DNA of 64,000 nt from an uncultured Clostridia bacterium (GCA_947313885.1 CAMZNU010000002.1:4321-68320); one strand, 5' to 3'. Shown: positions 36,955-56,762, counted from the stretch's first letter. Made by a program: numbers and translations. Notes: generated by a model not told the origin, from the sequence alone.

Positions 36955-38490
36955 ATGGTAGAACTAATAAAAAATGAAGTTAGTAAAATATTAAAAGTAA
37001 AAGAAGAAGATGTAAATATTTTAGAAAAATTAAAAGGTGGGATGAGTAACCATATGTATGTTATAGAAGTTAATGGTCTAAAATATACATTTAGAATACC
37101 TGGGAAAAAGGCTAATAATTTTGTAGATAGAGAAAAAGAGTTAGAAAATATTAAATTAGTTGAAAAATTAGAAGTTAACAATGAAATGTACTATTTCGAT
37201 GAGGTAGTAGGGTATAAGCTGTCAAAATATGTTGAGGGAGAATGTTTGATAGAAAAGAAAGTGGAAGACTATCTTGTAGATGTATCAGAAATTTTAAGAA
37301 AAGTGCATAATTCAGAATTAAGATCTAAATATGACTATGATTGTATGGGAAGATTATCAAAGTATGAGAAATTAGTAACAGATAAAGGTTATATAGGAAA
37401 AAGAGAAAAATATTATGAATTAAAGAAAAAACTGGAATCAGATTTCTCTTTTTTACAAAATGGTAATTTAGTTTTATGTCATGGAGATAGTCAGGTATCA
37501 AATTTTGTAGTGGGGGAAGATAAGTTATATTTATTAGACTGGGAATTTTGTGGAAATAATGACCCTATTTATGACATAGCTTGCTTTGGAAATGTTGATT
37601 TTGAAGATGCACTTAAATTATTGCCAATATATTTAGGACGTGAACCAAATGCTATTGAAATAAGTAAGTTAAATTATTTTAGAGGATTTCAATGTTTGCA
37701 ATGGCATAATGTTGCACTTTATAAGGATTTAATCGGTTTAAGCGAGGAACTTTCTGTTCCATTTTTAGAAATATCTGAAGGTTATTTAGTTAAGGCTGAG
37801 AAATTTTTAGAAGATGCGAGAATTAAAATGAATATAGAAAATGAAAAAGATTTATTAGAATTTGAAATATTTAAGGTTTTAGGGCCAGACATGTTAGAAA
37901 AAATGTCAAATGTAGTATACACCCAAACTATAGAAGCAGAAGAATTAATATATTCATCAAATGTATGTAAGGGTATATTAATAATTAAAGAAGGTAAATT
38001 TAGAGTATATATGGTTTCCGAAACAGGACGTGAAATAACTTTATTTTATGCAGAGAAAGGCGATACTTTGGCGCTTGCAATGAATTGTATGAGTGGTAGC
38101 ATGCCGATTAGTGTGCACGTTAAAGCTATTCAAGATAGTATTATTTATAAAATTGATAATGATGAATTTTTAAGATTTCATAGAAGTTCATTCGAGTTAC
38201 AAAAATTTATAATTGAGAACATGACGAAAAATATGAATGAAGTAATGTGGGTAATTGAACAAGTAGCGTTTAATAGTATAGACAAAAGAGTTGCAGGATA
38301 TTTATTAGACTTAGATCAAAATATTATTTATAAGACGCATAAAGAAATAGGCAATGAATTAGGAACGGCTAGGGAAGTCGTTAGTAGGATGTTAAAATAT
38401 TTCGAGCAACTAGGTCATATAGAAATTACACGAGGGAAAATTTATATTAAAGAAAAAGAAGAACTAGAAAAAATAGTTAGGCATATGTAA
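36955..38490 (+). CDS. Choline/ethanolamine-kinase-like phosphotransferase fused to a CRP/FNR-family transcription factor
   Basis: 511 aa in a single ORF. Residues 1-~290 form an APH/ChoK fold with GGMSNHMY, FRIPG, the Brenner motif HGDSQVSN and LLDWEF...NDPIYDIACF. Residues ~295-511 form a cNMP-binding beta-barrel plus the HTH GNELGTAREVVSRMLKYFEQLGHIEITRGKIYI. The ATG lies 1 nt after the addB stop. Confidence 0.8.
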   Translation: MVELIKNEVSKILKVKEEDVNILEKLKGGMSNHMYVIEVNGLKYTFRIPGKKANNFVDREKELENIKLVEKLEVNNEMYYFDEVVGYKLSKYVEGECLIEKKVEDYLVDVSEILRKVHNSELRSKYDYDCMGRLSKYEKLVTDKGYIGKREKYYELKKKLESDFSFLQNGNLVLCHGDSQVSNFVVGEDKLYLLDWEFCGNNDPIYDIACFGNVDFEDALKLLPIYLGREPNAIEISKLNYFRGFQCLQWHNVALYKDLIGLSEELSVPFLEISEGYLVKAEKFLEDARIKMNIENEKDLLEFEIFKVLGPDMLEKMSNVVYTQTIEAEELIYSSNVCKGILIIKEGKFRVYMVSETGREITLFYAEKGDTLALAMNCMSGSMPISVHVKAIQDSIIYKIDNDEFLRFHRSSFELQKFIIENMTKNMNEVMWVIEQVAFNSIDKRVAGYLLDLDQNIIYKTHKEIGNELGTAREVVSRMLKYFEQLGHIEITRGKIYIKEKEELEKIVRHM

Positions 38491-39161
38491 TGGAATATAT
38501 ATTAACCTTTTTTGCAGGAGTAATAACGTTTATATCACCGTGTTTATTACCTATTATCCCCATTTATATTAGCTACATCTCATTAGAAAATACGGCAAGT
38601 AGTAAGGTAAAGCTAATTAATTCAATTGGATTTTCTTTAGGATTTTCTATAGTGTTTTCAATGTTGGGAGCTATATTTTCAACGTTTTCGTTGTATGTAA
38701 ATGAATATAATAAAATTATTTCTATAGTTTCAGGAATTATAGTTATAACATTTGGATTAAGTGTATTAGGTGTAGTGCAATTGAAGATGCCGTATATTAA
38801 AAACAGAAGTAATTTAAACATGGAAAAACTAACATTTTTTAAATCTCTAATATTTGGAATTATTTTTGCTATTACAATGTCGCCGTGTTTAAATACATTT
38901 TTAGGAAGTGCATTATTACTATCAGCTAGTAGTGATAATTTAGACGTTATAAAAGGGGTAGCATTAATGTTAACATTTTCATTGGGGCTAGCAATACCGT
39001 TTATAATAACAGCGATGTTTATTGAGGAGATGGAAAAGATATTTTCAATGTTAAATAAAAATAGAAACAAAATACAAAAAATATCAGGAATATTTATGAT
39101 ATTTTTGGGTGTATTAATATTTATGGGAAAAATAAATTTAATTACCCAGATTTTTGATTAG
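38490..39161 (+). CDS. ccdA: CcdA/DsbD-family thiol-disulfide electron transporter
   Basis: 223 aa with 6 TM segments and the paired motifs FISPCLLPIIPIY and MSPCLNTF. A TAATG junction overlaps the upstream gene. Confidence 0.85.
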   Translation: MEYILTFFAGVITFISPCLLPIIPIYISYISLENTASSKVKLINSIGFSLGFSIVFSMLGAIFSTFSLYVNEYNKIISIVSGIIVITFGLSVLGVVQLKMPYIKNRSNLNMEKLTFFKSLIFGIIFAITMSPCLNTFLGSALLLSASSDNLDVIKGVALMLTFSLGLAIPFIITAMFIEEMEKIFSMLNKNRNKIQKISGIFMIFLGVLIFMGKINLITQIFD

Positions 39162-39768
39162 GAGGATTATGAATAAAAGAAGAATAATATTAATAATATC
39201 AACAGTATTGCTACTACTAGGAACATTAGTGACATCATATTTAACAAAGAATATATATGATACAAAAAATTATATTACAGATAACGTGGCAAGAGAAAAA
39301 AGTAAAGAAAAAAATGCGAAAGAAGGAGGCGTAGAAAAAGAAAACGAATCCGTTATAAATAGTTTAGATTTCACATTAAAAAACATAACAGGCAGTACTA
39401 CATCATTAAGTTCATTTAAAGATAAAAAAGTTGTTGTAATAAATTTCTGGGCAACATGGTGTAGTAATTGTAAAAAAGGGTTTCCAGATAAAATGAAATT
39501 AGAAGAACAATATAAAGAAAAAGTAGACTTTATTTTTATAAATGTTCAAGAAAGTAAAGAAAAAGTAGACGAGTATATGCGTGAAAATGGCTTTACATTT
39601 AAAAATAATTTATTAGATCTTGATGGTGAGGTCAGTCAATTATATGGAATTTCTGGAATACCAACAACAGTAATTATAAATAAAGAATTTACAGAAATTA
39701 TGGGATTTGTCGGAGATGTTGAAATAGGTATTTTTGAAAAAGAGATAATTAAGATGATTAGTAAATAA
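39154..39768 (+). CDS. Membrane-anchored TlpA/ResA-like thioredoxin-fold thiol-disulfide oxidoreductase
   Basis: 204 aa with an N-terminal TM anchor and FWATWCSNCK (WCxxC). It overlaps ccdA by 8 nt. Confidence 0.85.
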   Translation: MIRRIMNKRRIILIISTVLLLLGTLVTSYLTKNIYDTKNYITDNVAREKSKEKNAKEGGVEKENESVINSLDFTLKNITGSTTSLSSFKDKKVVVINFWATWCSNCKKGFPDKMKLEEQYKEKVDFIFINVQESKEKVDEYMRENGFTFKNNLLDLDGEVSQLYGISGIPTTVIINKEFTEIMGFVGDVEIGIFEKEIIKMISK

Positions 39769-39896
39769 TAAAACAAATGAAATTATGCAAGTTATTTACT
39801 CTAAAAGTATTATGTAAATAATATTGATTTTCATTAAAAAAAAAATATAGAATTAAAAACAGTTAGATTTACATTTATATTAGAAAAGGAGAACAA

Positions 39897-41084
39897 ATGG
39901 ATTTAGTAATGTTAAGTAGGATACAGTTTGCATTTACTGTAGGGTTTCATTTTTTATTTGTACCAATTAGTATTGGCGTGATTTTACATATGGCAATATT
40001 TGAATTTTTGCATTTAAAAACAGGGAAAGACGACTACAGAAAATTGACAGATTTTTTTGGAAATATATTTATTGTAAACTATGCAGTAGGTATAGTTACA
40101 GGAATTGGGATGAGTATACAGTTTGGAACTAATTGGGGAGAATATTCGACGTTTATGGGAGATTTATTTGGAGCTCCTTTAGCGATCGAGGCGTTACTAG
40201 CGTTTTTTCTAGAGTCTACATTTACGGGGATATATATTTTTAGAAGAAGTATTATGTCACCTAAATTTAGATTTGTAACAATTTTACTAATGACTTTAGG
40301 AACAAGTTTATCAGCATTATGGATTATAACGGCAAATGGGTTTATGCAAAACCCACTAGGTTACGAATTAAGTAGCGATGGGAGTAGAATAATATTAGTT
40401 GATTTTATGGCTATACTTTTAAACCCGTATGCGTGGTATATATTAGTACATACGTTACTAGCATCATATTTATTAGGTGCTATGTTCATAATGTCAGTGT
40501 CGGCAATGAAATTATTGCAACCTAATGTTTCAAAAGAAGAAAGTGAAATAATAGGCATGGCAACAAAAATTAGTAGTAAGACATTACTGTTGTTTAGTGT
40601 ATTAATATCAAGCCTAGGAGGTAGTTACACTATGTTCATAGGATTAATGCAAGAAACAAAAATGGATATGATTACGGGAATAGATAAATCTACAACAGGT
40701 CAAATAGTAGGTGCAAGCTTTTTAATAATGGTTACTCTTGGAACGATTTTTGTAATTATTGCGTTATACACGATTATCTTTTATAAACATTATGAAAAAT
40801 CTACAACTATGAAAAAAATATATGTTTATATATTTACATTGCCCTTTATAGCTATTCTTACGGGATGGATAGTAACAGAAGTAGGAAGACAGCCATGGGT
40901 AGTGTATGGGCTAATGAAAACTTCAGATGGTGTATCCTTAGTTCCTACAAGTCAAGTATGGTTTTCTCTAATTAGTGTGTTTTTAGTAAATGGAGTTCTG
41001 TTTGTTTTAGTAATGCATTTAAGTAAAACACAAATTAGAAAAAGTATATTTGACAATAAATACAACTATAAAGGAGGAAATTAA
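39897..41084 (+). CDS. cydA: Cytochrome bd oxidase subunit I (short Q-loop form)
   Basis: 395 aa with LSRIQFAFTVGFHFLFVP (N-terminal heme-ligand His), IEALLAFFLESTF, WYILVHTLLA and GWIVTEVGRQPWVVYG. Confidence 0.88.
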   Translation: MDLVMLSRIQFAFTVGFHFLFVPISIGVILHMAIFEFLHLKTGKDDYRKLTDFFGNIFIVNYAVGIVTGIGMSIQFGTNWGEYSTFMGDLFGAPLAIEALLAFFLESTFTGIYIFRRSIMSPKFRFVTILLMTLGTSLSALWIITANGFMQNPLGYELSSDGSRIILVDFMAILLNPYAWYILVHTLLASYLLGAMFIMSVSAMKLLQPNVSKEESEIIGMATKISSKTLLLFSVLISSLGGSYTMFIGLMQETKMDMITGIDKSTTGQIVGASFLIMVTLGTIFVIIALYTIIFYKHYEKSTTMKKIYVYIFTLPFIAILTGWIVTEVGRQPWVVYGLMKTSDGVSLVPTSQVWFSLISVFLVNGVLFVLVMHLSKTQIRKSIFDNKYNYKGGN

Positions 41085-42101
41085 ATGTCACATGAATTAT
41101 TAGCAAATATTTGGTTTCTTATTTTAGCATTAGTATGGTCATTATATGTAATTCAAGAAGCATTCGTAGTAGGTCTTAGTGTTATGTCGGCAAAATATAA
41201 GGAAGAAAAAGATGTTAGAAAAATAAATACGTTAGTAGGAACACATTGGGATGGTATAGAGGTATGGTTAGTTTTAGCAGTAGCAGGTCAATTTGCGGCT
41301 TTTCCAGTTATTTTTGCAGAAACATTAACTAACTTATACGTAGTATTCTTTCTACTGTTATATATTATAGTAGCGAGAGGGATGGCTATTGAAACATTAT
41401 ATAAAACAGACAATAAAAAAGTTCAAAAAGCATTAAAAGTTACATGGCAAGTGTCATCACCACTTTTAATATTAGTTATAGGCGTGTATCTTACAAATTT
41501 ATTTATGGGGCTTCAATTGTTAGAAAATTATATTGAAGGCGGATTTTTTCATTTCCTATATATATTTAATTTTACGGCAATATTAGGCGGTGTAATGTTT
41601 GTAACGTATAGCTTAACATCAGGATATAACTTTTTAGTTTTAAATTATAAAAATGATTTAAAGGAAAATATAGAACATATAGGTAAATATGCATCAGTAA
41701 TAACAGTTGTAACACTTATTTTTATATTAATGTCATTAAATAATGAATATTCAGTTTTTAATAGTGGAGTGTATGAGACGTATCAAATTTTGATATTACT
41801 ACCAGCACTATCGGCAATAATGATGATTGCATCAATGATTTTTGTGTGGTTAAATAAAAATTTATTTTCATTTATTACGCAGTCGTTAGGTATGACTTTA
41901 TTTATTTTTACAGGATTTGTTGGATCAATGCCATATGCGTTAAAAAGTATTAATAAAACTCAAGGAGCAGGAAGTATTTTAATGGTAGATGGTGCAGCCG
42001 GACCTAAAACCCTAGAATTAATGTTATATTTGACAATAGCATTTTTACCTATAGTTTTAGGATATATAATATTTAAGTATATTAAATTTTGGGGGAAATA
42101 A
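41085..42101 (+). CDS. cydB: Cytochrome bd oxidase subunit II
   Basis: 338 aa polytopic protein. It starts immediately after the cydA stop (TAAATG), and its size and topology are typical of CydB. Confidence 0.8.
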   Translation: MSHELLANIWFLILALVWSLYVIQEAFVVGLSVMSAKYKEEKDVRKINTLVGTHWDGIEVWLVLAVAGQFAAFPVIFAETLTNLYVVFFLLLYIIVARGMAIETLYKTDNKKVQKALKVTWQVSSPLLILVIGVYLTNLFMGLQLLENYIEGGFFHFLYIFNFTAILGGVMFVTYSLTSGYNFLVLNYKNDLKENIEHIGKYASVITVVTLIFILMSLNNEYSVFNSGVYETYQILILLPALSAIMMIASMIFVWLNKNLFSFITQSLGMTLFIFTGFVGSMPYALKSINKTQGAGSILMVDGAAGPKTLELMLYLTIAFLPIVLGYIIFKYIKFWGK

Positions 42102-42102
42102 T

Positions 42103-43140
42103 ATGACGATAAACCAAAAAAAGCAAAGTTTAGATAAATTAAAGATAGATTTAGTCAGTTATCAAAAACTGGTATATAATACATTGGTTATATTAGTAGC
42201 TATAAAGTTAGCTTTGTATATAGATATAGGTATTTTATATGTGTTAAAACATTTAGCATTAACGGGTATCGCTGTTGTAGTGTCACGCGAAGTGGAAATT
42301 TTATATTATTTTCACTATTATGAAAAATCTAGGGAAGAATCATTAAAAATAATAGAAACAACAAGACCAGAAATAGTAGCTTTGTTAATCGTTTTAATTT
42401 TTAATTACAATGTACCACCAGAAGGTGTAATTATAGCAGTATCACTTAGTATATTATTAAGTAGAATAGCATTTGGTGGTTTTTCGTATAATATATTTAA
42501 TACAGCAGCATTAGGTGTTGTCATTTTAAATGAAAGCTATAGAATGTCTATAGAAACGTTTGCACTAGACGATATAATCGATAAAGTGTTAGGTATTTTT
42601 TTTGTTGAATCCTTTGCACATAAACCGATACCTGTAGCTAATTTGGCAATAAGCATACCGGACGTATCATCTGTAGATTTAACTTCAGTTGCTATATTAG
42701 TAATAGCGATAATATTTTTTATGTCTTTAGTTATCAACAAGGTAGGGCGAATATTGCTACCAATAGCAACAGTATTTTTTATTTCCGTATTAGTGGCATT
42801 AGTAGGTGGGCGATATATTCCGATTTTAATAGAAGTAATTGGTCGCTACACAATAATAGGAATTTTATTTTTCACCTTAGACTTTCCTACAACTCCAAGG
42901 TTTAAAAATTCTACTATTGTAACAGCGTTAATAATTGCAATAGTTACTGTTTATATTAAATTTTTTACAGACAATGGATACGGAGTATTTTATGGTATTT
43001 TAATAGCAAATATGTGTACACCAATTCTTGATGCTAAATTTGCCAAGTATAAGGATAACGCATCGTCAATATCAATAGTAGTAGTAATTTCGTTTATAAT
43101 AAGTGTGTTAATTAGCTATCTTATTAAAGTAAATGTGTAG
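42103..43140 (+). CDS. RnfD/NqrB-family membrane protein, divergent, with no flavinylation motif
   Basis: 345 aa. FGGFSYNIFNTAALGV matches the FGGLG-N-FNPA block, and C-terminal DFPTTP...GYGVFYGILIANMCTPILD matches ATDPVT-P...G-FAIL--N---P-ID. No [ST]GA[ST] occurs anywhere in the protein. The ATG lies 1 nt after the cydB stop. Confidence 0.65.
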   Translation: MTINQKKQSLDKLKIDLVSYQKLVYNTLVILVAIKLALYIDIGILYVLKHLALTGIAVVVSREVEILYYFHYYEKSREESLKIIETTRPEIVALLIVLIFNYNVPPEGVIIAVSLSILLSRIAFGGFSYNIFNTAALGVVILNESYRMSIETFALDDIIDKVLGIFFVESFAHKPIPVANLAISIPDVSSVDLTSVAILVIAIIFFMSLVINKVGRILLPIATVFFISVLVALVGGRYIPILIEVIGRYTIIGILFFTLDFPTTPRFKNSTIVTALIIAIVTVYIKFFTDNGYGVFYGILIANMCTPILDAKFAKYKDNASSISIVVVISFIISVLISYLIKVNV

Positions 43141-43154
43141 TATGGAGGGTAAAT

Positions 43155-43706
43155 ATGAAAAATAAAATATTGCAATATTCAATAGTCCTTTTTGTTATTA
43201 CATTTATATCAGCTACGTCTATAACATTCATGAAAAATATAACAGAACCAATACTTACGTTACGTGCAAAGGAAAAGTTAGATTATGCTATAAATAATAA
43301 TTTGAAGATTTTATATCCATCAATGAGTGATGACTATGAAGTTTTAGATGATACGATAAGAAATAAGTCACTTATTACTAATATATTCAAAATTACATTT
43401 AAAAATAATGACAATACATACTATACATACAATGTTAGTAGTCCAGGGAAAAATGGAAATATAAATTTTTTAGTTGTTTATAATGAAATGAATAAAATAG
43501 ATAACATCATTTATATTTCACACAAGGAAACAAGAGGCAGAGGAGACAAAATAGAAAGTGAAGATTTTTTAAGCAAAATCGTAGGTCAACATATAGGGGG
43601 TTTTAATGCACCGAATATTACAGGAGCTACATACAGTTCATTAGGGGTTAAAAATGGAATAGAGGAAGCTAACAAACATTTACAGGAGGTGATATTAGGT
43701 GAATAA
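43155..43706 (+). CDS. rnfG: RnfG/NqrC-type FMN-binding subunit
   Basis: 183 aa with an N-terminal TM anchor and an FMN_bind domain carrying HKETRGRGDK and the flavinylation motif ITGATYSS. Confidence 0.78.
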   Translation: MKNKILQYSIVLFVITFISATSITFMKNITEPILTLRAKEKLDYAINNNLKILYPSMSDDYEVLDDTIRNKSLITNIFKITFKNNDNTYYTYNVSSPGKNGNINFLVVYNEMNKIDNIIYISHKETRGRGDKIESEDFLSKIVGQHIGGFNAPNITGATYSSLGVKNGIEEANKHLQEVILGE

Positions 43707-44322
43707 GTTATATACAAATTTAAAAGATTCTCTCATAAAAGATAACCCAATATTTGTCTCGTATTTAGCGTTATGCCCAACATTAGGAACGACATCTACA
43801 TTTAACAATGCGATAGGAATGGGCTTAAGTGTTTTATTTGTTCTTATTTTTTCAAATCTTTTAATATCATCAGTGAGGAATTTTGTACCCAGTGAAATAA
43901 GAATTCCTGTTTTTATTACAATAATAGCTTCACTAGTTACATTATTAGAAATGATCTTAGAGGCTGTAACGCCAACATTATACGAAACGTTAGGTATGTT
44001 TTTACCTCTTATAGTAGTAAATTGTATTATACTAGGTCGTGCCGAATCGTTTGCATCAAAAAATAATGTTAAAAAATCAATAATAGATGGACTTATTACA
44101 GGATTAGCATTTGCTATAACAATAAGTATTATAGGAGCATTTAGAGAATTTTTTGGAACAGGTTCAATAAGTATATTTTCATTAAGATTACAAATGTTCA
44201 CGCAAGAAATCATGCCATCATTTTTAACTAAAAACACAGGTGCATTTATATCGTTAGGGTTAATGGGCTGGGTATTTAATGAGATTAAAATAAACAATAT
44301 GAAGAAAGGAAAGGTGAATTAA
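43699..44322 (+). CDS. rnfE: RnfE/NqrD-type membrane subunit
   Basis: 207 aa with a GTG start after aggagg. It has NPIFVSYLALCPTLGTT and VVNCIILGRAE, so both conserved Cys are present. It overlaps rnfG by 8 nt. Confidence 0.85.
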   Translation: MNKLYTNLKDSLIKDNPIFVSYLALCPTLGTTSTFNNAIGMGLSVLFVLIFSNLLISSVRNFVPSEIRIPVFITIIASLVTLLEMILEAVTPTLYETLGMFLPLIVVNCIILGRAESFASKNNVKKSIIDGLITGLAFAITISIIGAFREFFGTGSISIFSLRLQMFTQEIMPSFLTKNTGAFISLGLMGWVFNEIKINNMKKGKVN

Positions 44323-44895
44323 ATGACTATGAATGAAATAATTATTTTCGCAGTTTCAGCTTTCTTAGTTCAAAATATAGTGTTAACTCAATTTTTAGGA
44401 CTATGTTCATTTTTTGGAGTTTCAAATAAAAGAACATCAGCGGTAGGCATGGGACTAAGTGTTTTAGCTGTAATTACATTATCATCAATAGTAACATATA
44501 CTATTTATTATAAAATTTTAGTGCCGTACGACTTATTACATTTAAGAACGATAGTATTCATTTTAGTAGTTAGTGGATTTGTGCAAATTGTAGAAATGAT
44601 AATTAAAAAAATATCAAAACCGTTATATGATATTTTAGGTATTTATTTACCATTAATAACTACAAATTGTGCTGTGCTAGGAGTTGCATTGATAAATATA
44701 GATAGGCAATTTACATTTACGCAAATGATAATATTTTCAATATCAACAGCATTAGGTTACACAGTTGTAGTATACATGTTTTCATTTTTAAGAGATGAAA
44801 TAAATAAATCACCAGTACCTAGAGCATTAAGAAATAATCCAATAGCTTTACTAACAGCAGGAATTATGGCGTTAGCCATGAGTGGCTTAGTATAG
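44323..44895 (+). CDS. rnfA: RnfA/NqrE-type membrane subunit
   Basis: 190 aa with VQNIVLTQFLGLCSFFGVS and LPLITTNCAVLGVAL, so both conserved Cys are present. It starts directly after the rnfE stop. Confidence 0.85.
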   Translation: MTMNEIIIFAVSAFLVQNIVLTQFLGLCSFFGVSNKRTSAVGMGLSVLAVITLSSIVTYTIYYKILVPYDLLHLRTIVFILVVSGFVQIVEMIIKKISKPLYDILGIYLPLITTNCAVLGVALINIDRQFTFTQMIIFSISTALGYTVVVYMFSFLRDEINKSPVPRALRNNPIALLTAGIMALAMSGLV

Positions 44896-44904
44896 GAGGA
44901 ATAT

Positions 44905-45066
44905 ATGAGTTTTATTGTAGGCGTTCTTTTAATAGCAACATTGGCAACTTTTTTTATAGTAACGTATTATCTAAATAAAAAAATGGATACTAATAGCAAT
45001 TATAGATTAAATGAATGTAAGACTTGCACATATAAAAATGGTAGTTGTAAAAATAGAGGAGTTTAA
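44905..45066 (+). CDS. Unlisted 53-aa membrane peptide with a C-terminal Cys-rich tail
   Basis: My own translation is MSFIVGVLLIATLATFFIVTYYLNKKMDTNSNYRLNECKTCTYKNGSCKNRGV. An aggagga RBS sits at 44894-44900. There is one TM helix, then C-x2-C-x6-C. It fills the gap between rnfA and the rnfB-like gene exactly. It is below the 60-aa cutoff of the ORF track. Confidence 0.5.
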   Translation: MSFIVGVLLIATLATFFIVTYYLNKKMDTNSNYRLNECKTCTYKNGSCKNRGV

Positions 45067-45067
45067 T

Positions 45068-45352
45068 ATGATAGTTGAAATATTAACAGCGGGAATAGTA
45101 GTTGGTATTATGGGATTACTAATAGGTGTTGTAATAGCTGTAAGTAGCAAAATTTTCAAGGTGGAAGTTGATGATAGGATAGATATTATTTATAAAATGT
45201 TACCATCATTTAATTGTGGATCTTGTGGAACGGCTGGATGCATGGCATTTGCAGAAACTTTAATCAAAGGAGAAAACACTATTGATAAATGTAGACCGTG
45301 TAAACCAGAAGCAGAAGAAAAAATAATAAAAAAATTGAACGAGCTGATATAA
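45068..45352 (+). CDS. RnfB-like protein consisting only of the N-terminal TM anchor and 4Fe-4S domain
   Basis: 94 aa counted from the in-frame ATG at 45068 (agaggag RBS). It has a TM helix and then LPSFNCGSCGTAGCMAFAETLIKGENTIDKC (Cx2Cx4Cx16C). The ferredoxin-like 2x[4Fe-4S] domains of full-length RnfB are absent. The listed start at 45011 would overlap the 53-aa ORF. Confidence 0.7.
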   Translation: MIVEILTAGIVVGIMGLLIGVVIAVSSKIFKVEVDDRIDIIYKMLPSFNCGSCGTAGCMAFAETLIKGENTIDKCRPCKPEAEEKIIKKLNELI

Positions 45353-45353
45353 A

Positions 45354-45401
45354 TTGTTAACTAAAAAAACACACTGCAAAGTGTGTTTTTTTAGTTAACA
45401 A
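45354..45401 (+). terminator. Strong terminator closing the cyd-rnf operon
   Basis: ttgttaactaaaaaaacacact-gcaa-agtgtgtttttttagttaacaa forms a 22-bp perfect stem with a GCAA loop, starting 2 nt after the stop codon. Confidence 0.8.
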
Positions 45402-45434
45402 TATTATATAATATTATATGAAAAGAGGTGTATT

Positions 45435-46487
45435 ATGATTAAACGAATATATAAAAAAGAAATACAAATAGGAGATGTAAAAATAGGCGGGGACAATAAA
45501 ATATTAATTCAGTCTATGACAAATACGGATACAAAAAATGTTAGTGATACAGTAAAACAAATAAAAAAATTAGAAAATGAAGGATGTGAAATTATAAGAG
45601 TAGCTGTAAAAGATGAGGGTGATGCGAAAGCTATAAAAAAGATAAAAGAAAATATTAAAATACCAATAGTTGCCGATATACATTTCAATTACAAATTAGC
45701 AATATTAGCTATGGAGAATGGCATAGATAAAATAAGAATTAACCCAGGAAATATATCAAACATAGAAAATTTAAAAAAAATTGTGGATGTAGCTATAAAA
45801 TTAGATATACCAATAAGAGTAGGAGTAAATTCAGGTTCTTTAGAACAAGAATTTATAGATAAATATAATGGGGTAACACCTATGGGATTGGTGGATAGTG
45901 GGTTGAAAAATATAGCAATTTTAGAGAATATGGGGTTGAAAAATATAGTGTTATCATTAAAAGCTTCGAATGTTAGGTTTGCAATTGAAGCATATACATT
46001 AATAAATGAAAGGATACAATACCCGCTACATCTAGGGATTACCGAAGCTGGTACAAAATTTACGGGTTCAATAAAGTCAGCGGTAGGAATAGGTCACTTA
46101 CTTTATAATGGAATAGGTGATACATTTAGAGTTTCAATAACGGATGACCCAGTAGAAGAAATAGAAATAGCAAAAGAAATACTACAATCATTAGATATTA
46201 GAAAATTCAGAACAGAAGTTATTTCATGTCCTACTTGTGGAAGGACAGAAATAGATCTAATTGCTTTGACAAATAAAGTTGAAAAATATTGTAAAAGGAT
46301 AAATAAAAACATTACAGTGGCAGTTATGGGGTGCGTGGTGAATGGACCAGGAGAAGCTAAGGAAGCAGACGTAGGGCTAGCGGGTGGAAAAGGCGTAGGT
46401 TTAATATTTAAAAAAGGTGAAATACATAAAAAAGTTGAAGAAAATGAAATGTTCGACGAACTAATAAAAGTTATAAATTCAATGTAG
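45435..46487 (+). CDS. ispG: 4-hydroxy-3-methylbut-2-enyl diphosphate synthase
   Basis: 350 aa with IQSMTNT, RINPGN and the C-terminal Fe-S cysteines SCPTCGR...GCVVNGPGE. Confidence 0.92.
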   Translation: MIKRIYKKEIQIGDVKIGGDNKILIQSMTNTDTKNVSDTVKQIKKLENEGCEIIRVAVKDEGDAKAIKKIKENIKIPIVADIHFNYKLAILAMENGIDKIRINPGNISNIENLKKIVDVAIKLDIPIRVGVNSGSLEQEFIDKYNGVTPMGLVDSGLKNIAILENMGLKNIVLSLKASNVRFAIEAYTLINERIQYPLHLGITEAGTKFTGSIKSAVGIGHLLYNGIGDTFRVSITDDPVEEIEIAKEILQSLDIRKFRTEVISCPTCGRTEIDLIALTNKVEKYCKRINKNITVAVMGCVVNGPGEAKEADVGLAGGKGVGLIFKKGEIHKKVEENEMFDELIKVINSM

Positions 46488-46502
46488 ACAGAAGGTGCGT
46501 AT

Positions 46503-49500
46503 ATGAGAAATAAAACTTTATTCGAGGTGTTTCCTAATGTTCAATTTAGTGAAAAATATAAAGAAATAAAAGTTTCTAAAGTTAATTTTGATGAAAAAAA
46601 TAAAGCGATAACAATTAAATGTAATAGTTCTATTAAAATGGAAGAAAAGGATAGACAACATTTAGAAAAAAAAATATTAGAAAAATTAGATTATTTAAAA
46701 GAAGTTAATGTAGAATCTACTTTTATAAGTAACGATAGCCCAGAAGAAGTAATAGACAAGTATTTTAGAAATGTGATAGATATGTTTAAAGATGCATCTA
46801 CTTTTACATATACGATACTTAAAAAAAGTAAATATTACATAAGAGGAAATAGCTTACTAATAGAAGTAAATGAAGACTTGTACTTTTATGTTATAGGAAA
46901 AGAAATAGACAAAAGTATAAATAGTATTTTAAAAAGAGAGTATAATTTAGATATAAATGTAAGTTTTGAAATAGTAAAAGAAGGAATGACTACAGAGAAT
47001 TATAAGAAAAACAAAGATGAAGAATTAAAAAGTATGATATCAAGTTTAGCTTTAAACGATAGAGATAAGCCTAAAAAAGAGGAGAATAATAAAGAAAGAA
47101 AGAAAAGCAAAAAAAATAGAAAGTATAAAACAAGAAGAAAAAATGGTGTAAATTATGTTGAAAAAATATCTGGTGAAATATGTGCGATATTAGATGGAAT
47201 AGTACAAGACGATGAAACTATTATAAAGGGAGAAATTTTCGAGCTAGAAGTTAAAGAGATAAAAAATGATAAACTTCTAATTTCTTTTGATATGTTTGAT
47301 GAAAGTAGTGCGGTTACAGTTAAATTTTTCATTACAAAAGAAATATATGAAGAAGAATTCAAAGAAAAACTGTATAATGGCGATGAAGTGATAGTTAAAG
47401 GGTATGTAAGATATGATAATTATGATAAAGAATTAAATATTATGGCAAATGAAATATGCCATGGGGAAAACAAAATAAAAGAAGAAAAAGACGAGGAAGA
47501 AATTAAGCGTGTAGAGTTACATTTACATACTAACATGAGTTCTATGGATGGTATAAATAGTATAAAAGATTATATAAAAAAAGCAAAAAAATATGGTCAT
47601 AAATCATTAGCAATAACAGATCATGGGGTAGTACAAGCATTTCCAGAAGCAATGAATGAAGTTCGTGATATAGATTTTAAGTTAATATATGGAGTGGAGG
47701 CTTATTTAATAAATGATATAGAACTTGTAGTAGGAAATGTAAGGAATCAAAATATAGAAGATGAGTTTGTAGTATTTGATGTAGAAACTACAGGGTTATA
47801 TAGTAATACAAATAAAATTATAGAGATAGGTGCAGTAAAAATTAAAAACATGGAAATTATAGAAACATTTTCAGTGTTAATAAACCCGAATGAAATGTTA
47901 AGTGATAAAATTATAAAGTTAACAGGAATTACAGATAACATGTTAGAAGATAAAGGTGATGTAGAAAGTGAGATAGATAAATTTATTGATTTTATAGGTA
48001 AAAGTATTTTAGTTGGGCATAACGTTAAATTTGACATTGGTTTTTTAAATAAAGCGGTAAAGGATGTAAAAGGAGAAGAGTTAGAAAATACGTTTATAGA
48101 TACGGTAACTTTATGTCAAGGTATTTTTAATGGCAATGATAAGTTTAAAAACTTCAAACTAGATACGATAGCTAGAAACTTAGGGATCAGTCTAGAAACT
48201 CACCATAGAGCATTAGAAGATGCGAAAGCTACGGGTAAAATTTTAATACACTGTTTAAAAGTATTAGAAAAAGATGGAATAACAAAGATAGAACATATAA
48301 ATGAATATATTGCAAAAAAAATAGATTATAAAAAAATCAGACCAAATCACTGTATTATATTGGTAAAAAACTTAAAAGGGCTTAAAAACTTGTATAAATT
48401 AATATCAGAATCCCACATAAATAATTATTATAGAAACCCGCGAATTCCTAAAAGTTTATTAGTGGAAAATAAGGAAGGATTAATAATAGGAAGTGCATGT
48501 GAGGCAGGTGAATTATATAAAAACATAATAGGCAACATGCCAAAATCATATATAAAAAAAATAAGTCAATTGTATAATTATTTTGAGATACAGCCATTAG
48601 AAAATAACAAATATTTAATTAAAAATGGTGCGGTAACAGATACAAGACTTATTGAAATCAACAGGGAGATAGTTAAGCTAGGAGATGTAGAAAATAAAAT
48701 AGTAGTGGGAACGGGAGACGTTCATTTTTTAAATAAGGTCGATAAAGTGTATAGAGAAATATTAATGAGTAGTAAGGGATTTAAAGATGCGGAAGATCAA
48801 CCACCTTTATACTATAAAAGTACAAAGGAGATGTTAAATAATTTTTCATATTTAGGTAAAAAGAAAGCATACGAGATTGTAGTTACAAATACGAATAAAA
48901 TAAGTGATTTAGTAGATAAGATAAACCCAATACCAGATGGAACGTTCCCGCCTAAAATTGAAGGAGCAGATAAAGAATTAGAAAAAATAGCATATGAAAA
49001 AGCAAGGAGTTTATATGGTGACGATCTACCGAAAGTGGTAGAACAAAGATTGAATAGAGAGTTAACATCTATAATAAGTAATGGGTTTGCTGTTATGTAT
49101 ATAATAGCGCAGAAGCTAGTAAAAGATTCAGAAAAAGCGGGTTACTTAGTAGGATCTAGAGGATCTGTAGGTTCATCATTTGCGGCAACGATGGGTGGGA
49201 TAACAGAAGTGAACCCATTACCACCACATTATTATTGTAAGAAATGTCAGTATAATGATTTTGATTCAGAACTTGTATTAAGTTTTGCAGGTGGAACAGG
49301 ATATGACATGCCAGATAAAAATTGTCCTAACTGTGCCACTAAGTTAACTAAAGAGGGTCACGACATACCTTTCGAAACATTTTTAGGTTTTGATGGAGAT
49401 AAGGAACCAGATATAGATTTAAATTTTTCAGGAGACTATCAAGGCAAAGCCCATGAGTATACAGAAAAATTGTTCGGGGAGGGATATGTATATAAAGCTG

Positions 49501-51207: not shown

Positions 51208-54200
51208 ATGGCAAAAATTATAAAAACAATGGATGGAAATGCAGCGGCAACGTATACGTCATATGCATTTACAGAAGTTGCGGGTATTTTCCCGATTACG
51301 CCATCGTCTCAAATGGCAGAGTTAGCAGATGAAATGTCGGCTAACGGAGTAAAAAATATGTTTGGGCAAACAGTAGAAGTTATAGAAATGCAATCAGAAG
51401 CAGGTGCAGCGGGCACGGTTCATGGTTCATTACAAGCAGGAGCTTTAACAACTACGTTTACAGCATCACAAGGTTTATTACTTAAAATACCAAATATGTA
51501 TAAAATAGCAGGGGAATTATTACCATGTGTTATACATGTTAGTGCGAGAGCAATAGCAGGACATGCACTGTCGATATTTGGAGATCATTCAGATGTTATG
51601 GCGGCAAGACAAACAGGATTTGCTATGTTAGCGTCTAATAGTGTACAAGAAGTTGCTGACTTATCAGCTGTAGCACATTTATCTACATTAAAAGGTAAAG
51701 TTCCTTTTATTCATTTTTTTGATGGATTTCGTACGTCACATGAAATTCAAAAAGTGGAGTGCTTAGAATATAGTGACTTTGCAGACTTGGTAGATATGAA
51801 TGCTGTTGAAGAATTTAGAAAAAGTGGTTTAAATCCAGAAAGTCCAGTAACAAGAGGTTCAGCACAAAATCCTGATATATTCTTCCAAGGTAAAGAGGCA
51901 TCAAATAAATATTATAATGAATTACCAGCTATAGTTGAAGACTATATGGATAAAATAAATAAATTAACAGGTAGAGATTATCAGTTATTTAATTACTATG
52001 GTGCTAAAGATGCAGATAGAGTTATTATAGCTATGGGTTCTGGTGTTGAGGCTATAGAGGAAACAGTAGATTATTTAAATAGCATTGGCGAAAAAGTAGG
52101 AGTTATTAAAGTAAGATTATTTAGACCATTCTCTTTAGATCACTTCGTAAAATCAATACCAGCATCAGCTACTAAAATAGCTGTTTTAGATAGAACAAAA
52201 GAACCAGGATCATTAGGAGAGCCATTATACCAAGACGTATGTACAGCATTAGTTGAGAAAGATTTAAAATTAACAGTAGTAGGTGGACGTTATGCATTAG
52301 GCTCTAAAGATTTCACACCAGCACAAGTTGTTTCAGTGTTTAACAACTTAAAAGAAGAAAAACCAAAAAATCACTTTACAGTAGGTATAGTTGATGACGT
52401 TACACATACATCTTTAGAAGTAGGAGATGAATTAGATCTTGCAGATGCAGATACAAAAAGTTGTAAATTCTGGGGATTAGGTTCAGATGGTACAATTGGA
52501 GCTAATAAAAACTCAATTAAAATAATTGGTGATAATACAGATTTATATGCACAAGCATATTTCTCATATGATTCAAAAAAATCAGGCGGTATTACACAAT
52601 CACATTTACGTTTTGGTAAAAAACCAATTCGCTCAACTTATTTAGTAAATAAAGCAGATTTCGTTGCTTGTCATAAACCATCGTATTTAGAAAAATATGA
52701 TATGTTAAAAGATATTAAAGAAAACGGTACATTTTTATTAAACTGTTCTTGGTCAGTTGAGGAATTAGAAAGTAATTTACCAGCTAACGTTAAAAGACAA
52801 ATAGCTAATAAAAACATTAAATTTTATACTTTAGATGCTACTAGTATTGCTAAGGAAATAGGATTAGGAAATAGAGTTAACACTATACTTCAAGCAGGAT
52901 TTTTCAATTTAACGAAAATCATCCCAACAGAAGATGCTGTTAAATATATGAAAAATGCAATTCAAAAATCATATGGTAACAAAGGTGAAAAAATCGTTAA
53001 CATGAATAATCAAGCTGTAGATAAAGGAATAACAGCAGCAGTTCAAGTTACAATACCTAGTGCATGGGCTACAGCAGAAGATGTTAAAAAAGAAGCGAGC
53101 AAAGAAGAAAAACCAGTATACGTATCAACAATAGTAGATCCGATAAATGCTTTAAAAGGTGATGACTTACCTGTAAGTACATTTATGGACTTCGTTGATG
53201 GAACTATGCCAAATGGTACAGCGGCATATGAAAAACGTGGAATAGCAGTAGATGTTCCAGAATGGATTGCAGATAAATGTATACAATGTAATCAATGTGC
53301 ATACGTATGCCCTCATTCATGTATTAGACCATTCATAGCAACAGATGAAAGCTTAGCGAATAAACCAAAAGGTTATGAAACTATTAAAGGTCGTGGAAAA
53401 GGTTTAGAAAACTATAATTATAGAATGCAAGTAGATACATTAGATTGTACAGGTTGCGGAAACTGTGTTCAAATATGTCCAGCTAAAGAGAAAGCTCTAG
53501 TTATGGAACCTATGGAAACACAAATGAAAGAAATGGAAAATTGGTATTATAGCTTAAACCTACCAGTAGTAGAAAATCCAATAAATAAAGAAACAGTTAA
53601 AGGTTCACAATTTGAAACGCCATTATTTGAGTTCTCGGGAGCTTGTGCAGGTTGTGGAGAAACACCATATGCAAAATTATTAACACAATTATTTGGTGAT
53701 AGAATGTATATTGCTAATGCAACAGGATGTTCATCAATTTGGGGAGCATCATCACCAGCTACGCCATATACTACTAATCATAAAGGTCAAGGACCAGCAT
53801 GGGCAAACTCATTATTTGAAGATAATGCAGAGTTTGGATTAGGTATGTTAGCAGGACAAGAAAAAATTAGAGAAGGTGTTAAAGCTAAAGTGGAAGAACT
53901 ATCAACTAGCACATCAGACTCTAACGTGAAAAATGCAATTACTAATTGGATTGACACATATAATGATGGTGAAGCTTCTAAATTAAGTTCACTTACATTA
54001 GTTGACACATTAGCAAAAGCTAAATTATCAGGAGCGGAAAAAGTATTAGCAGAAAAAGTATTAAAAGATAAAAACTTCCTAAACAAAAAATCACAATGGA
54101 TTTTAGGAGGAGATGGATGGGCGTATGACATTGGTTATGGTGGATTAGATCACGTATTAGCTAGTGGAAGAAATGTAAATGTTTTAGTATTTGATACAGA

Positions 54201-56320: not shown

Positions 56321-56340
56321 GAGAAGTTTATAGAATCATA

Positions 56341-56390
56341 AAAAGTGTATGAATAAAAAACTCAACGTGAGTTTTAATTCATACACTTTT
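56341..56390 (+). terminator. Terminator after AGCS paralog 1
   Basis: aaaagtgtatgaat...attcatacactttt with an inner aaaactca/tgagtttt extension, followed by ttt. Confidence 0.75.
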
Positions 56391-56762
56391 TTTAAAAAAA
56401 TAATTTAGATTAAAAAGCAAAGTATTTTAGTTAAAAGAGAAGATGAAATATATTTTATAATGAATTATACACTAATAAAATATAGTGTGTATTGCAATTA
56501 TCCATAAAATAAGTTAAACTATTAGCAATATGATATAAGTATTTAAAATAAAAACTGTTTAATTTAAATAATTAAGCAAAAAATAATTGTGTTATTAAGA
56601 TGTTTAAGTTAAAAAAATTAAAATGTGAAATATGGATATAATATTTATAGTGTATTTAATAATATAAAATAACAAAAATCATGCAAGAAAAAAGAAGAGT
56701 GTTATAAAGTGTGGACCTATGTAAAATAGTTTCATAATCTATATTTTTTTAAGGAGGATAAA

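What the first reader, a model, noticed from the sequence alone, without database searches (positions are those of the whole stretch)
39897..45352. Cytochrome bd oxidase genes share one tight operon with an RnfC-less Rnf-type membrane core
Seen directly: cydA, cydB, an RnfD-like gene, rnfG, rnfE, rnfA, a 53-aa Cys-rich ORF and a 94-aa RnfB N-domain gene follow one another with spacings of -8 to +14 nt. Examples are TAAATG at the cydA/cydB junction, 1 nt between cydB and the rnfD-like gene, and the rnfE GTG start overlapping rnfG. The run is preceded by a 128-nt intergenic region and closed by a 22-bp-stem hairpin. Established knowledge: clostridial Rnf clusters are rnfCDGEAB, and cyd operons are cydAB, often with cydCD or cydX. 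I do not recall any described system in which bd oxidase is co-operonic with an Rnf/Nqr D-G-E-A core. Inference: the core may act as a transmembrane electron conduit dedicated to the oxidase. The proposed path is cytoplasmic low-potential donor, then the RnfB' 4Fe-4S cluster, then the RnfA/E Fe-S site, then the extracytoplasmic FMN on RnfG, then bd. That would permit O2 reduction without a quinone pool, which many Clostridia lack.
Basis: partly seen in the sequence, partly recalled or inferred. Interest (0 to 1): 0.85.

Follow-up and report, generated by a model that had tools for sequence, protein, structure and literature searches.

The report
Quinone-independent bd oxidase wired to Rnf
An eight-gene operon joins a cytochrome bd oxygen reductase that has lost its quinol-binding loop to a cut-down Rnf membrane module, with the oxidase genes sitting exactly where rnfC normally sits, which suggests that some anaerobes reduce oxygen directly with ferredoxin electrons and no quinone pool.

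Summary
At 39897-45352 the genes cydA, cydB, a degenerate rnfD, rnfG, rnfE, rnfA, a 53-aa Cys-rich membrane ORF and a 94-aa rnfB N-domain gene lie 8 nt overlapping to 14 nt apart. Each has a Shine-Dalgarno site, and one hairpin terminator closes the run.

The arrangement is not a chance juxtaposition. The same operon occurs in Candidatus Izimaplasma-like genomes, Thiospirochaeta perfilievii, an Erysipelotrichia MAG and many metagenome contigs.

Three changes travel together:
- **Q-loop loss.** CydA keeps all haem ligands but its Q-loop shrinks to 17-28 residues (72-85 in ordinary relatives, 140 in E. coli). Glu257 and Arg391 are lost.
- **rnfC replaced.** cydAB occupies the position that rnfC holds in the closest ordinary rnfCDGEA-x-B operons.
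- **RnfD flavin site lost.** RnfD has lost its covalent-FMN threonine in all 13 linked loci. RnfG keeps its flavin motif, RnfA/E keep their cysteines, and RnfB' keeps its four cysteines.

Best reading: a ferredoxin-to-oxygen oxidoreductase in which electrons leave through the outward-facing RnfG flavin to haem b558. I found no description of this in the literature I could search. It rests on comparative evidence only; whether the hosts lack quinones was not tested.

The parts
39769..39896 (+). 128-nt intergenic region upstream of cydA; presumed promoter and regulatory region
   Evidence: Gap measured. The promoter scan is uninformative in this AT-rich DNA (50 sites found against 57.7 expected). 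The promoter role is inferred only.
39897..41084 (+). cydA: cytochrome bd subunit I with a near-deleted Q-loop
   Evidence: PF01654, 362 bits. The equivalents of E. coli H19, H186, M393, E99, E107 and E445 are all kept. E. coli residues 255-388 correspond to only 16 residues here. Lys252 is kept; Glu257 and Arg391 are replaced. There is no Cys, so no haem c motif.
41085..42101 (+). cydB: cytochrome bd subunit II
   Evidence: PF02322, 173 bits. TIGR00203 scores 132 bits, above its cut-off of 117.3.
42103..43140 (+). rnfD': degenerate RnfD/NqrB-family membrane subunit without the covalent-FMN threonine
   Evidence: PF03116, 86 bits, against 228 bits for a canonical NqrB in L091. TIGR01946 scores 49 against a cut-off of 207. 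Only 252 cluster hits among 1.8 billion representatives, the nearest at 39% identity. The S-x-A-T-P site aligned to RsxD T187 is absent. It is the fastest-evolving subunit of the operon.
43155..43706 (+). rnfG: membrane-anchored FMN-binding subunit with its flavinylation motif intact (ITGATYSS)
   Evidence: PF04205, 44 bits. The TGAT motif at residue 156 is conserved across the linked loci.
43699..44322 (+). rnfE
   Evidence: PF02508, 191 bits. TIGR01948 scores 219.8, above its cut-off of 213.4. Cys26 and Cys109 are conserved.
44323..44895 (+). rnfA
   Evidence: PF02508, 163 bits. TIGR01943 scores 212.8, just under its cut-off of 229.3. Cys28 and Cys116 are conserved.
44905..45066 (+). 53-aa single-helix protein with a Cys-rich tail (CxxCx6C); conserved small subunit of this Rnf lineage
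   Evidence: No Pfam or NCBIfam hit. An equivalent TM plus C..CxxC..C ORF lies between rnfA and the short rnfB in 51 of 65 loci, both CydAB-linked and RnfC-linked.
45068..45352 (+). rnfB': membrane anchor plus the single N-terminal Fe-S domain of RnfB; no ferredoxin-like domains
   Evidence: PF04060, 51 bits. The Cys pattern CxxCx4C..C is conserved. Homologues in the other loci are 95-100 aa, which supports the ATG at 45068.
45354..45401 (+). intrinsic-terminator-like hairpin closing the operon
   Evidence: The only terminator-like site in 38300-46600. Stem of at least 20 bp.

Best explanation
The operon most likely encodes one membrane assembly that works as a quinone-independent ferredoxin (or flavodoxin):O2 oxidoreductase.

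It derives from an rnfC-D-G-E-A-x-B operon of the type found in Erysipelotrichia and Mollicutes-like Bacilli, which has a short RnfB and a small Cys-rich subunit. In the derived form the NAD+-reducing output subunit RnfC has been replaced by cytochrome bd.

Inferred electron path: the cytoplasmic low-potential donor passes electrons to the single [4Fe-4S] cluster of RnfB', possibly with help from the small Cys-rich subunit. They cross the membrane through the RnfA/RnfE iron-sulfur site to the covalently bound FMN of RnfG on the outer face. In ordinary Rnf they would return inward through the FMN of RnfD to RnfC. Here they pass instead to haem b558 of CydA, which is uncovered by deletion of the Q-loop lid, and then to haems b595 and d, where O2 is reduced to water.

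RnfD' has lost its flavin site. It probably persists as a structural core, a possible ion path, and the contact to CydB.

Shown here: gene content, conservation of the linkage, and the retained and lost cofactor residues.

Inferred: physical association, the identity of the donor, the RnfG-to-b558 step, and any Na+/H+ pumping.
For: 1. **Conserved operon.** It occurs in the window, L085 (76% CydA identity), L168, L169, L002 (Erysipelotrichia MAG), L082/L083 (identical to Izimaplasma HR1 CydA), L084 (T. perfilievii complete genome) and metagenome loci L087, L088, L090, L091, L093 and L099. cydB and rnfD' are always abutting or overlapping.
2. **Bimodal Q-loop length.** It is 17-28 residues in all Rnf-linked CydA and 72-85 in 67 ordinary relatives, none of which has rnf genes next to cydB. 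Among loci with enough downstream sequence the counts are 11 of 12 against 0 of 51 (Fisher p = 2e-11, not corrected for phylogeny).
3. **Quinol-site residues.** Glu257 and Arg391 are at least 96% conserved in ordinary relatives and replaced throughout the clade. The cryo-EM study PMC13189123 places the quinol oxidation site beneath the Q-loop lid next to haem b558, lined by Glu257, Phe269, Ile295-Phe298, Phe390 and Arg391 among others.
4. **Catalytic core intact.** The haem ligands and Glu99/Glu107 are kept.
5. **rnfC position.** Of the 80 nearest RnfD loci, 70 have RnfC directly upstream; 6 of the other 10 are Nqr, identified by NqrF in the one tested; and only L002 has CydAB. No RnfC lies in the window or in any linked flank.
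6. **RnfD flavin site.** The RnfD FMN threonine is kept in RnfC- and Nqr-linked homologues and lost in 13 of 13 linked RnfD'.
7. **Other cofactor sites kept.** These are the RnfG flavin motif, the RnfA/E Cys pairs and the four Cys of RnfB'.
8. **Single origin.** The ultra-short CydA proteins form one clade.
9. **Donor source nearby.** A pyruvate:ferredoxin oxidoreductase lies 6 kb downstream.
10. **Natural fusions.** L090 and L091 fuse RnfD' to one or four outward-facing FMN domains.
Against: - There is no biochemical or structural evidence of contact between RnfG and CydA.
- The Lys252 equivalent is invariant in the clade, so a remodelled quinol site is not excluded.
- Quinone biosynthesis genes, apbE and haem synthesis could not be surveyed genome-wide. 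No ApbE lies in the window or in the linked flanks.
- L170 carries an ultra-short-Q-loop cydAB without adjacent rnf genes.
- In L090 and L091 the operon continues into nqrBCDEF, an enzyme class that normally reduces quinone.
- The association statistics reflect essentially one evolutionary origin.
- Published genome papers assume that the Izemoplasma bd enzyme uses a quinone pool, although they do not test it.
Confidence: 0.6

Rival explanations
1. This is a minimal quinone-based chain encoded in one operon. RnfD'GEA-x-B' would be a ferredoxin:quinone oxidoreductase, with RnfD' acting like NqrB as the quinone-reducing subunit. The bd enzyme would still oxidise quinol, at a remodelled site that needs no Q-loop.
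For: - NqrB, the RnfD homologue, carries the quinone-reducing end of Na+-NQR (established knowledge; review PMC12174285).
- The Lys252 equivalent is invariant.
- In L090 and L091 the operon runs on into nqrBCDEF.
- Genome papers assume a quinone pool for the Izemoplasma bd enzyme.
Against: - RnfD' lacks the covalent FMN that NqrB needs to pass electrons from the NqrC/RnfG flavin to riboflavin and quinone.
- RnfD' is the least conserved subunit.
- The whole lid of the quinol site, together with Glu257 and Arg391, is gone exactly and only in the linked clade.
- cydAB replaces rnfC rather than being added to a complete enzyme.
Confidence: 0.2
2. The Rnf' module is an assembly or maintenance factor for bd rather than its electron donor. 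For example, it could export reducing power to keep haem or thiols reduced during bd maturation, in the place of CydDC.
For: - No cydDC genes are present in the operon.
- A ccdA/resA-like thiol-reducing pair lies immediately upstream in the window.
- Flavinylated outward-facing modules serve many extracytosolic redox tasks (PMC8238504).
Against: - It does not explain why the quinol site of CydA is lost in step with the linkage.
- It does not explain why cydAB takes the rnfC slot.
- Six or seven stoichiometric, translationally coupled membrane subunits is a lot for a maturation factor.
- The ccdA/resA pair is not conserved next to the operon elsewhere.
Confidence: 0.08
3. The two units function independently. 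The Rnf' genes would be a decaying remnant, or would serve another outward acceptor, and merely share a transcript with an oxygen-scavenging bd oxidase.
For: - RnfD' is degenerate.
- L170 shows that this type of bd can exist without adjacent rnf genes.
Against: - RnfE, RnfA, RnfG and RnfB' keep all their cofactor ligands.
- RnfE and RnfA stay 47-75% identical across three phyla.
- Linkage and gene order are conserved over CydA divergence down to 47% identity.
- No RnfC-less rnfDGEAB was found without cydAB among the 80 nearest loci.
Confidence: 0.04

Closest known systems
Rnf complex (RnfCDGEAB, ferredoxin:NAD+ oxidoreductase), especially the Erysipelotrichia/Acholeplasmatales-type operon rnfC-D-G-E-A-(small Cys ORF)-short rnfB
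   Same: Same gene order for D-G-E-A-x-B. RnfE and RnfA are true family members with the Fe-S cysteines. RnfG carries the flavinylation motif. The short RnfB and the small Cys-rich subunit are shared with the parent lineage.
   Different: RnfC is absent and cydAB sits in its place. RnfD has lost the covalent-FMN threonine and scores far below the family cut-off. The terminal acceptor would be O2 through haems rather than NAD+.
Quinol-oxidising cytochrome bd (qOR family; E. coli bd-I/bd-II, Geobacillus bd)
   Same: CydA/CydB fold families, all three haem ligand sets, the Glu99/Glu107 proton-channel residues with the E. coli-type spacing, and the GRQPW motif.
   Different: The Q-loop is cut to 17-28 residues. 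Glu257, Arg391, Glu74 and Trp55 are replaced. No CydX- or CydS-like gene is present. The genes are co-operonic and translationally coupled with Rnf-type genes.
bd-superfamily enzymes predicted to use non-quinol donors (OR-C with haem c, OR-N; Murali et al., bioRxiv 10.1101/2021.01.16.426971)
   Same: A bd-type oxygen-reduction core whose quinol site is missing, encoded next to a candidate alternative electron donor.
   Different: Those families branch apart from qOR, have 8-14 helices or CydA paralogue pairs, and use haem c or other partners. That paper does not mention Rnf or Nqr at all. The present CydA sits inside the qOR radiation beside ordinary short-Q-loop enzymes.
Methanosarcina acetivorans Rnf with the multihaem cytochrome MmcA
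   Same: An Rnf machine that hands electrons to a haem protein on the membrane or outer side instead of (only) NAD+ (PMC12174285).
   Different: It keeps RnfC and a flavinylated RnfD. The partner is a c-type multihaem protein that reduces methanophenazine, not an oxygen reductase.
NQR/RNF-like two-subunit systems of Meheust et al. 2021 and Huang et al. 2024
   Same: A one-way cytosol-to-outside electron path ending on an NqrC/RnfG-type flavin. The NqrB/RnfD-like subunit has lost its flavinylation site.
   Different: Those systems consist of an NqrB-like protein fused to an NAD-binding domain plus one FMN protein. They have no RnfA, RnfE or RnfB, no oxidase, and are mostly from Actinobacteria and CPR.

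Membership tests
Cytochrome bd superfamily (CydAB) | Subunit I and II sequence families | tested here: met
   PF01654 at 362 bits and PF02322 at 173 bits, both far above gathering scores. TIGR00203 is above its cut-off. Best solved relatives are E. coli bd-II and bd-I, E = 2e-68 and 2e-67.
Cytochrome bd superfamily (CydAB) | Ligands of haems b558, b595 and d (E. coli H186, M393, H19, E445, E99) and proton-channel Glu107 | tested here: met
   All are aligned and conserved: window H185, M278, H18, E328, E98 and E106.
Quinol-oxidising bd (qOR as defined by Murali et al.) | Quinol-binding site: a Q-loop lid with Lys252, Glu257 and Arg391 | tested here: not met
   The Q-loop is 22 residues, against 72-85 in ordinary relatives and 140 in E. 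coli. Lys252 is present, Glu257 is Thr, and Arg391 is Leu. The same losses occur across the whole clade.
Quinol-oxidising bd (qOR) | Quinol oxidase activity | not testable with these tools
   Needs enzyme assays.
OR-C bd family | CxxCH haem c motifs in subunit I | tested here: not met
   The window CydA contains no cysteine (sequence).
Rnf complex (ferredoxin:NAD+ oxidoreductase) | RnfA and RnfE with paired Fe-S cysteines | tested here: met
   PF02508 at 191 and 163 bits. TIGR01948 scores 219.8, above 213.4. RnfA TIGR01943 scores 212.8, slightly under 229.3. The Cys pairs are conserved.
Rnf complex (ferredoxin:NAD+ oxidoreductase) | RnfG with the [S/T]GA[S/T] flavinylation site | tested here: met
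   PF04205 at 44 bits; motif ITGATYSS at residue 156. TIGR01947 scores only 54 against a cut-off of 102. Actual flavinylation was not tested.
Rnf complex (ferredoxin:NAD+ oxidoreductase) | RnfD with covalently bound FMN (Thr in S-x-A-T-P, RsxD T187) | tested here: not met
   The site is absent in the window and in all 13 CydAB-linked loci. It is present in essentially all RnfC- and Nqr-linked homologues. TIGR01946 scores 49 against a cut-off of 207.
Rnf complex (ferredoxin:NAD+ oxidoreductase) | RnfC (NADH/FMN/Fe-S output subunit) | tested here: not met
   phmmer with RnfC of L011 and E. coli RsxC gave no hit in the 64-kb window or in any linked locus flank. The same search hit 70 of the 80 ordinary loci. 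The rest of the genome was not searchable.
Rnf complex (ferredoxin:NAD+ oxidoreductase) | RnfB with an N-terminal Fe-S domain plus ferredoxin-like 4Fe-4S domains | tested here: inconclusive
   Only the membrane anchor and PF04060 are present (94 aa), with no Fer4 domain. TIGR01944 scores 60.6 against a cut-off of 68.7. The RnfC-containing parent operons carry the same short RnfB, so the short form does not by itself exclude membership.
Na+-NQR | NqrF (2Fe-2S/FAD/NADH) and NqrA | tested here: not met
   No such ORF is in the operon. An NqrF-type protein is found only in other loci (L006 and L091).
NQR/RNF-like system (Meheust 2021) | NqrB/RnfD-like domain fused to an NAD-binding domain (PF00175) | tested here: not met
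   RnfD' matches PF03116 only. The definition is quoted.

The most novel reading that the evidence does not exclude
This would be a previously unrecognised respiratory enzyme class: a ferredoxin-driven, quinone-free terminal oxidase supercomplex (Rnf'-bd). An Rnf-type transmembrane wire delivers electrons from the cytoplasm to the outer-face haem b558 through a covalently bound flavin. The complex may still pump Na+ or H+. It has spread by horizontal transfer among fermentative anaerobes of at least three phyla: Clostridia, Bacilli/Mollicutes-like lineages and Spirochaetota.
Probability: 0.5. Interest if true: 0.9.

Novelty: new variant of a known kind. Interest (0 to 1): 0.82.

Why it matters
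Cytochrome bd is textbook-defined as a quinol oxidase, and Rnf as a ferredoxin:NAD+ pump. A natural hybrid in which bd replaces RnfC would show that both machines are modular. It would add a direct ferredoxin-to-oxygen route to the list of respiratory chains.

It would also explain how fermentative organisms generally regarded as lacking respiratory quinones can carry cyd genes and consume oxygen. Examples are Izemoplasma-like wall-less bacteria, free-living spirochaetes and some Clostridia. This bears on oxygen tolerance in guts, sediments and seeps.

It gives a concrete test system, because T. perfilievii is cultured and has a closed genome.

It also matters for drug work on bd oxidases, where the Q-loop site is the target, and for engineering oxygen-tolerant anaerobes.

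Tried and rejected
1. **Word-indexed homologue search with RnfD'.** It returned only the query itself. I replaced it with the exhaustive HMMER search.
2. **First locus scan.** A 16-sequence RnfD' alignment had no stretch conserved enough to search with. I narrowed it to 6 sequences.
3. **"Widespread RnfC-less module" reading.** After I thought the RnfD'-G-E-A-B' module was widespread in Erysipelotrichaceae without RnfC. I rejected this when the upstream ORF in 70 of 80 loci proved to be RnfC. The RnfC-less state is specific to the cydAB-linked form.
4. **Known non-quinol bd families and NQR/RNF-like systems.** I considered OR-C/OR-N membership and the Meheust NQR/RNF-like system, and rejected both on their defining features.
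5. **Organism identity.** The window genome was not recovered in the genome-contig scan (best match to its RnfD' 27% identity). Cluster look-ups gave no names. PolC relatives place it near Lachnospirales only approximately.
6. **Promoter scan.** No better than shuffled sequence.
7. **Rfam.** No hits in the window.
8. **Skennerton et al. 2016 (Izimaplasma).** The paper could not be read.
9. **Structure prediction.** Not run. Only single chains can be modelled and no coordinates are returned, so it could not test the RnfG-CydA contact.
10. **The 677-aa gene after cydB in L170.** I checked it as a possible alternative donor. It is a secreted repeat/C39-peptidase-like protein.

Full report
**Observation.** Spacings are 0, 1, 14, -8, 0, 9 and 1 nt. 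A GGAGG-like ribosome-binding site precedes every start. A 128-nt gap lies upstream. A single hairpin of about 21 bp at 45354-45401 is the only terminator-like site between 38300 and 46600. Homologues elsewhere are 95-100 aa.

**Family assignments.** Pfam places the proteins in Cyt_bd_oxida_I (362 bits), Cyt_bd_oxida_II (173), NQR2_RnfD_RnfE (86), FMN_bind (44), Rnf-Nqr (191 and 163) and FeS (51). The 53-aa ORF matches nothing. Against NCBIfam, RnfE passes the equivalog-level cut-off and RnfA nearly does. The RnfD-like protein scores 49 against a cut-off of 207, RnfG 54 against 102, and RnfB 61 against 69. So RnfE and RnfA are orthodox, while RnfD is strongly divergent. An exhaustive HMMER search of 1.8 billion cluster representatives found only 252 relatives of the RnfD-like protein at E <= 1e-3. 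The nearest has 39% identity.

**The oxidase.** Aligned to solved E. coli bd-I and bd-II, the window CydA keeps His19, His186, Met393, Glu99, Glu107 and Glu445 and the GRQPW motif. E. coli residues 255-388 correspond to only 16 residues here. The Lys252 equivalent is kept, Glu257 is Thr, and Arg391 is Leu.
[quoted passage not shown] The site is lined by Gly242, Tyr243, Leu253, Glu257, Phe269, Ile295, Ala296, Phe298, Phe390, Arg391 and others. That study finds that ordering of the Q-loop completes the site (PMC13189123). Most of that lid does not exist in this protein.
- From my own knowledge of the mutagenesis literature (Mogi 2006; Zhang 2004; not re-read here), Glu257 and Arg391 are needed for quinol oxidase activity.

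**Conservation of the linkage.** A search with CydA returned more than 115 clusters of CydA proteins 380-406 aa long at 46-76% identity. Some are named as coming from Izimaplasma HR1, Thiospirochaeta perfilievii, and Spirochaetaceae, Mycoplasmatales and Bacilli MAGs.
- Every context I could retrieve, except one, shows cydA-cydB-rnfD'-rnfG-rnfE-rnfA-(small ORF)-rnfB'. These are L085, L168, L169, L082/L083, L084 (a closed spirochaete genome) and L002 (Erysipelotrichia MAG).
- A scan of JGI metagenomes gave 80 CydA loci. The residue count between the Lys252 and Met393 equivalents is sharply bimodal. It is 17-28 in the loci with rnf genes right after cydB. It is 72-85 in all the others, which keep Glu257 (or Asp) and Arg391 and have no adjacent rnf genes.
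- Counting only loci with at least 1.2 kb after cydB gives 11 of 12 against 0 of 51 (Fisher p = 2e-11).
- A neighbour-joining tree puts all ultra-short forms in one clade beside ordinary short-Q-loop enzymes. The statistic therefore reflects one origin followed by faithful retention across three phyla, not many independent events.
- Other residues at least 91% conserved in ordinary relatives are also replaced clade-wide, among them Glu74 of the proton channel and Trp55.

**The Rnf side.** A scan of 185,579 species genomes with an RnfD' alignment gave 80 loci, mostly Erysipelotrichaceae, other Bacilli, Acholeplasmatales, Mycoplasma and Proteiniclasticum. Nearly all have the order D-G-E-A-short B.
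- I first read these as RnfC-less. That was wrong. In 70 of the 80, the ORF directly upstream is RnfC (RnfC_N, Complex1_51K, SLBB and Fer4 domains). Of the other ten, six are Nqr; the one downstream ORF tested (L006) is NqrF-like. Three are cut by contig ends. Only L002 has cydAB there.
- So cydAB occupies the slot of rnfC in an operon type that already had a 94-100-aa RnfB and a small single-helix, Cys-rich subunit. That small subunit is present in 51 of 65 loci.
- Aligned to E. coli RsxD, the covalent-FMN threonine (T187, S-x-A-T-P) is conserved in essentially all RnfC- or Nqr-linked homologues. It is absent in all 13 cydAB-linked RnfD'.
- In the linked loci, RnfG keeps its flavinylation motif (AGAS in L093), RnfA and RnfE keep their cysteine pairs, and RnfB' keeps four cysteines.
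- RnfD' is also the fastest-evolving subunit, at 23-38% identity where CydA is 47-76% and RnfA 56-75%.

**Variants.**
- In L090 and L091, RnfD' is fused to four or one outward-facing FMN-binding domains. It is followed by divergent E'/A' genes and then nqrBCDEF, without nqrA and without rnfB'.
- L170 (Bacilli MAG) has an ultra-short-Q-loop cydAB with no rnf genes after it. It lies next to a flavodiiron protein and other oxygen-defence genes.

**Mechanism.**
- In ordinary Rnf (established from the structures cited in PMC12174285 and PMC9588780), electrons run ferredoxin, RnfB, RnfA/E, RnfG-FMN (outer face), RnfD-FMN, RnfC, NAD+.
- Here the inward return branch is dismantled: RnfC is absent and the RnfD flavin site is gone. 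Everything up to the outward-facing RnfG flavin is preserved.
- At the same time, the oxidase encoded immediately upstream has lost the lid that covers the outer-face haem b558 and forms the quinol site.
- The simplest reading is that the RnfG flavin reduces haem b558 directly. That would make a ferredoxin (or flavodoxin):O2 oxidoreductase that needs no quinone.
- NADH cannot be the donor in this form, because its binding subunit is missing. A pyruvate:ferredoxin oxidoreductase lies 6 kb downstream in the window.
- By inference only: an electron and a proton that both come from the cytoplasm give no net charge separation at the oxidase. Any energy conservation would therefore have to come from ion pumping by the Rnf part. 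That may be why RnfD' is retained.

**Rivals.**
- *Ferredoxin:quinone reductase plus a remodelled quinol oxidase.* This is the serious alternative. The retained lysine, the nqr genes in L090 and L091, and the NqrB precedent favour it. The loss of the RnfD flavin site and of the quinol pocket count against it.
- *Maturation role for Rnf'.* This does not explain the correlated losses.
- *Mere co-transcription.* This does not explain them either.

**Literature.** Searches of the held library found no paper linking bd oxidase to Rnf-type genes.
- Izimaplasma and Izemoplasma genome papers list a bd oxidase and Rnf complexes as separate items and assume a quinone pool.
- The survey of the bd superfamily does not mention Rnf or Nqr.
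- The flavinylation surveys describe a different NQR/RNF-like system.
- The 2025 RNF/NQR review does not mention it.
- Skennerton et al. 2016 could not be read. Subscription-only papers are not covered.

**Host.** PolC relatives at 50-54% identity (Lachnospirales, Tyzzerella, Anaerotignum, Defluviitaleaceae) place the window in a deep Clostridia lineage. The operon therefore occurs in Clostridia, Bacilli/Mollicutes-like lineages and Spirochaetota, which implies horizontal transfer as a unit.

**Limits.** There is no transcript, protein or activity evidence. There is no genome-wide check for quinone, haem or ApbE genes. There is no multimer model.

Noticed in passing
window 36955-39768: A single 511-aa ORF fuses a choline/ethanolamine-kinase-like domain to a cNMP-binding plus Crp-type HTH domain. 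Its stop overlaps the start of a ccdA (DsbD_TM) gene, which in turn overlaps a ResA-like thioredoxin gene. This three-gene unit ends 128 nt before cydA. It may regulate, or keep reduced, something on the outer face, but it is not conserved next to the operon in other genomes.
   Followed up: partly
window 44905-45066, and between rnfA and rnfB in L002-L087: A small protein with one transmembrane helix and a C..CxxC..C tail is conserved in 51 of 65 Rnf loci of the Erysipelotrichia/Bacilli type, both RnfC-linked and CydAB-linked. It has no Pfam or NCBIfam family. It looks like an unannotated Rnf subunit that accompanies the very short RnfB.
   Followed up: partly
L090 10170-17008; L091 4514-11111: This is a variant operon. 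After cydAB comes RnfD' fused to four (L090) or one (L091) FMN-binding domains, then divergent RnfE'/RnfA' genes, then nqrB-C-D-E-F without nqrA and without rnfB'. The input here may be NADH through NqrF.
   Followed up: partly
L170 8001-12348: A Bacilli MAG carries an ultra-short-Q-loop cydAB (Glu257 equivalent kept) with no rnf genes downstream. The next gene encodes a secreted repeat protein with a C39-like peptidase domain. A flavodiiron protein, a rubredoxin-fused acyl-CoA dehydrogenase/ETF and an Rrf2 regulator lie upstream.
   Followed up: partly
L003-L081 (for example L004 9821-11641, L074 7900-10017): Ordinary rnfC-containing operons of Erysipelotrichaceae and related Bacilli often encode RnfD fused to one or two C-terminal FMN-binding domains (470-700 aa). 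ApbE is often encoded divergently upstream (25 loci).
   Followed up: partly
window 51208-54741: A pyruvate:ferredoxin oxidoreductase (1177 aa) lies 6 kb downstream of the operon. It shows that the organism makes reduced ferredoxin.
   Followed up: partly
window 5606-8116: One ORF combines AraC-type ligand-binding and HTH domains with a glycoside hydrolase family 39 domain, an unusual regulator-enzyme fusion. It sits in a cluster with GH3, sulfatase, an MFS sugar transporter and a radical-SAM/SPASM (sulfatase-maturase-like) gene.
   Followed up: no
window 54863-58223: Two tandem paralogous sodium:alanine symporter genes. The 76%-identical relative L085 has one such gene directly upstream of its cydA.
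   Followed up: no
window 1-64000: No Rfam family reaches its gathering score anywhere in the 64 kb: no tRNA, and no riboswitch ahead of the purine genes at 18-5438. All large genes but one or two are on the + strand, with strongly positive GC skew throughout.
   Followed up: no
L169 1082-2647 (P0270): This Rnf-linked CydA carries an acidic insertion of about 130 aa in the loop after the conserved FMQNP(I/L)GY motif, on top of the Q-loop deletion.
   Followed up: no
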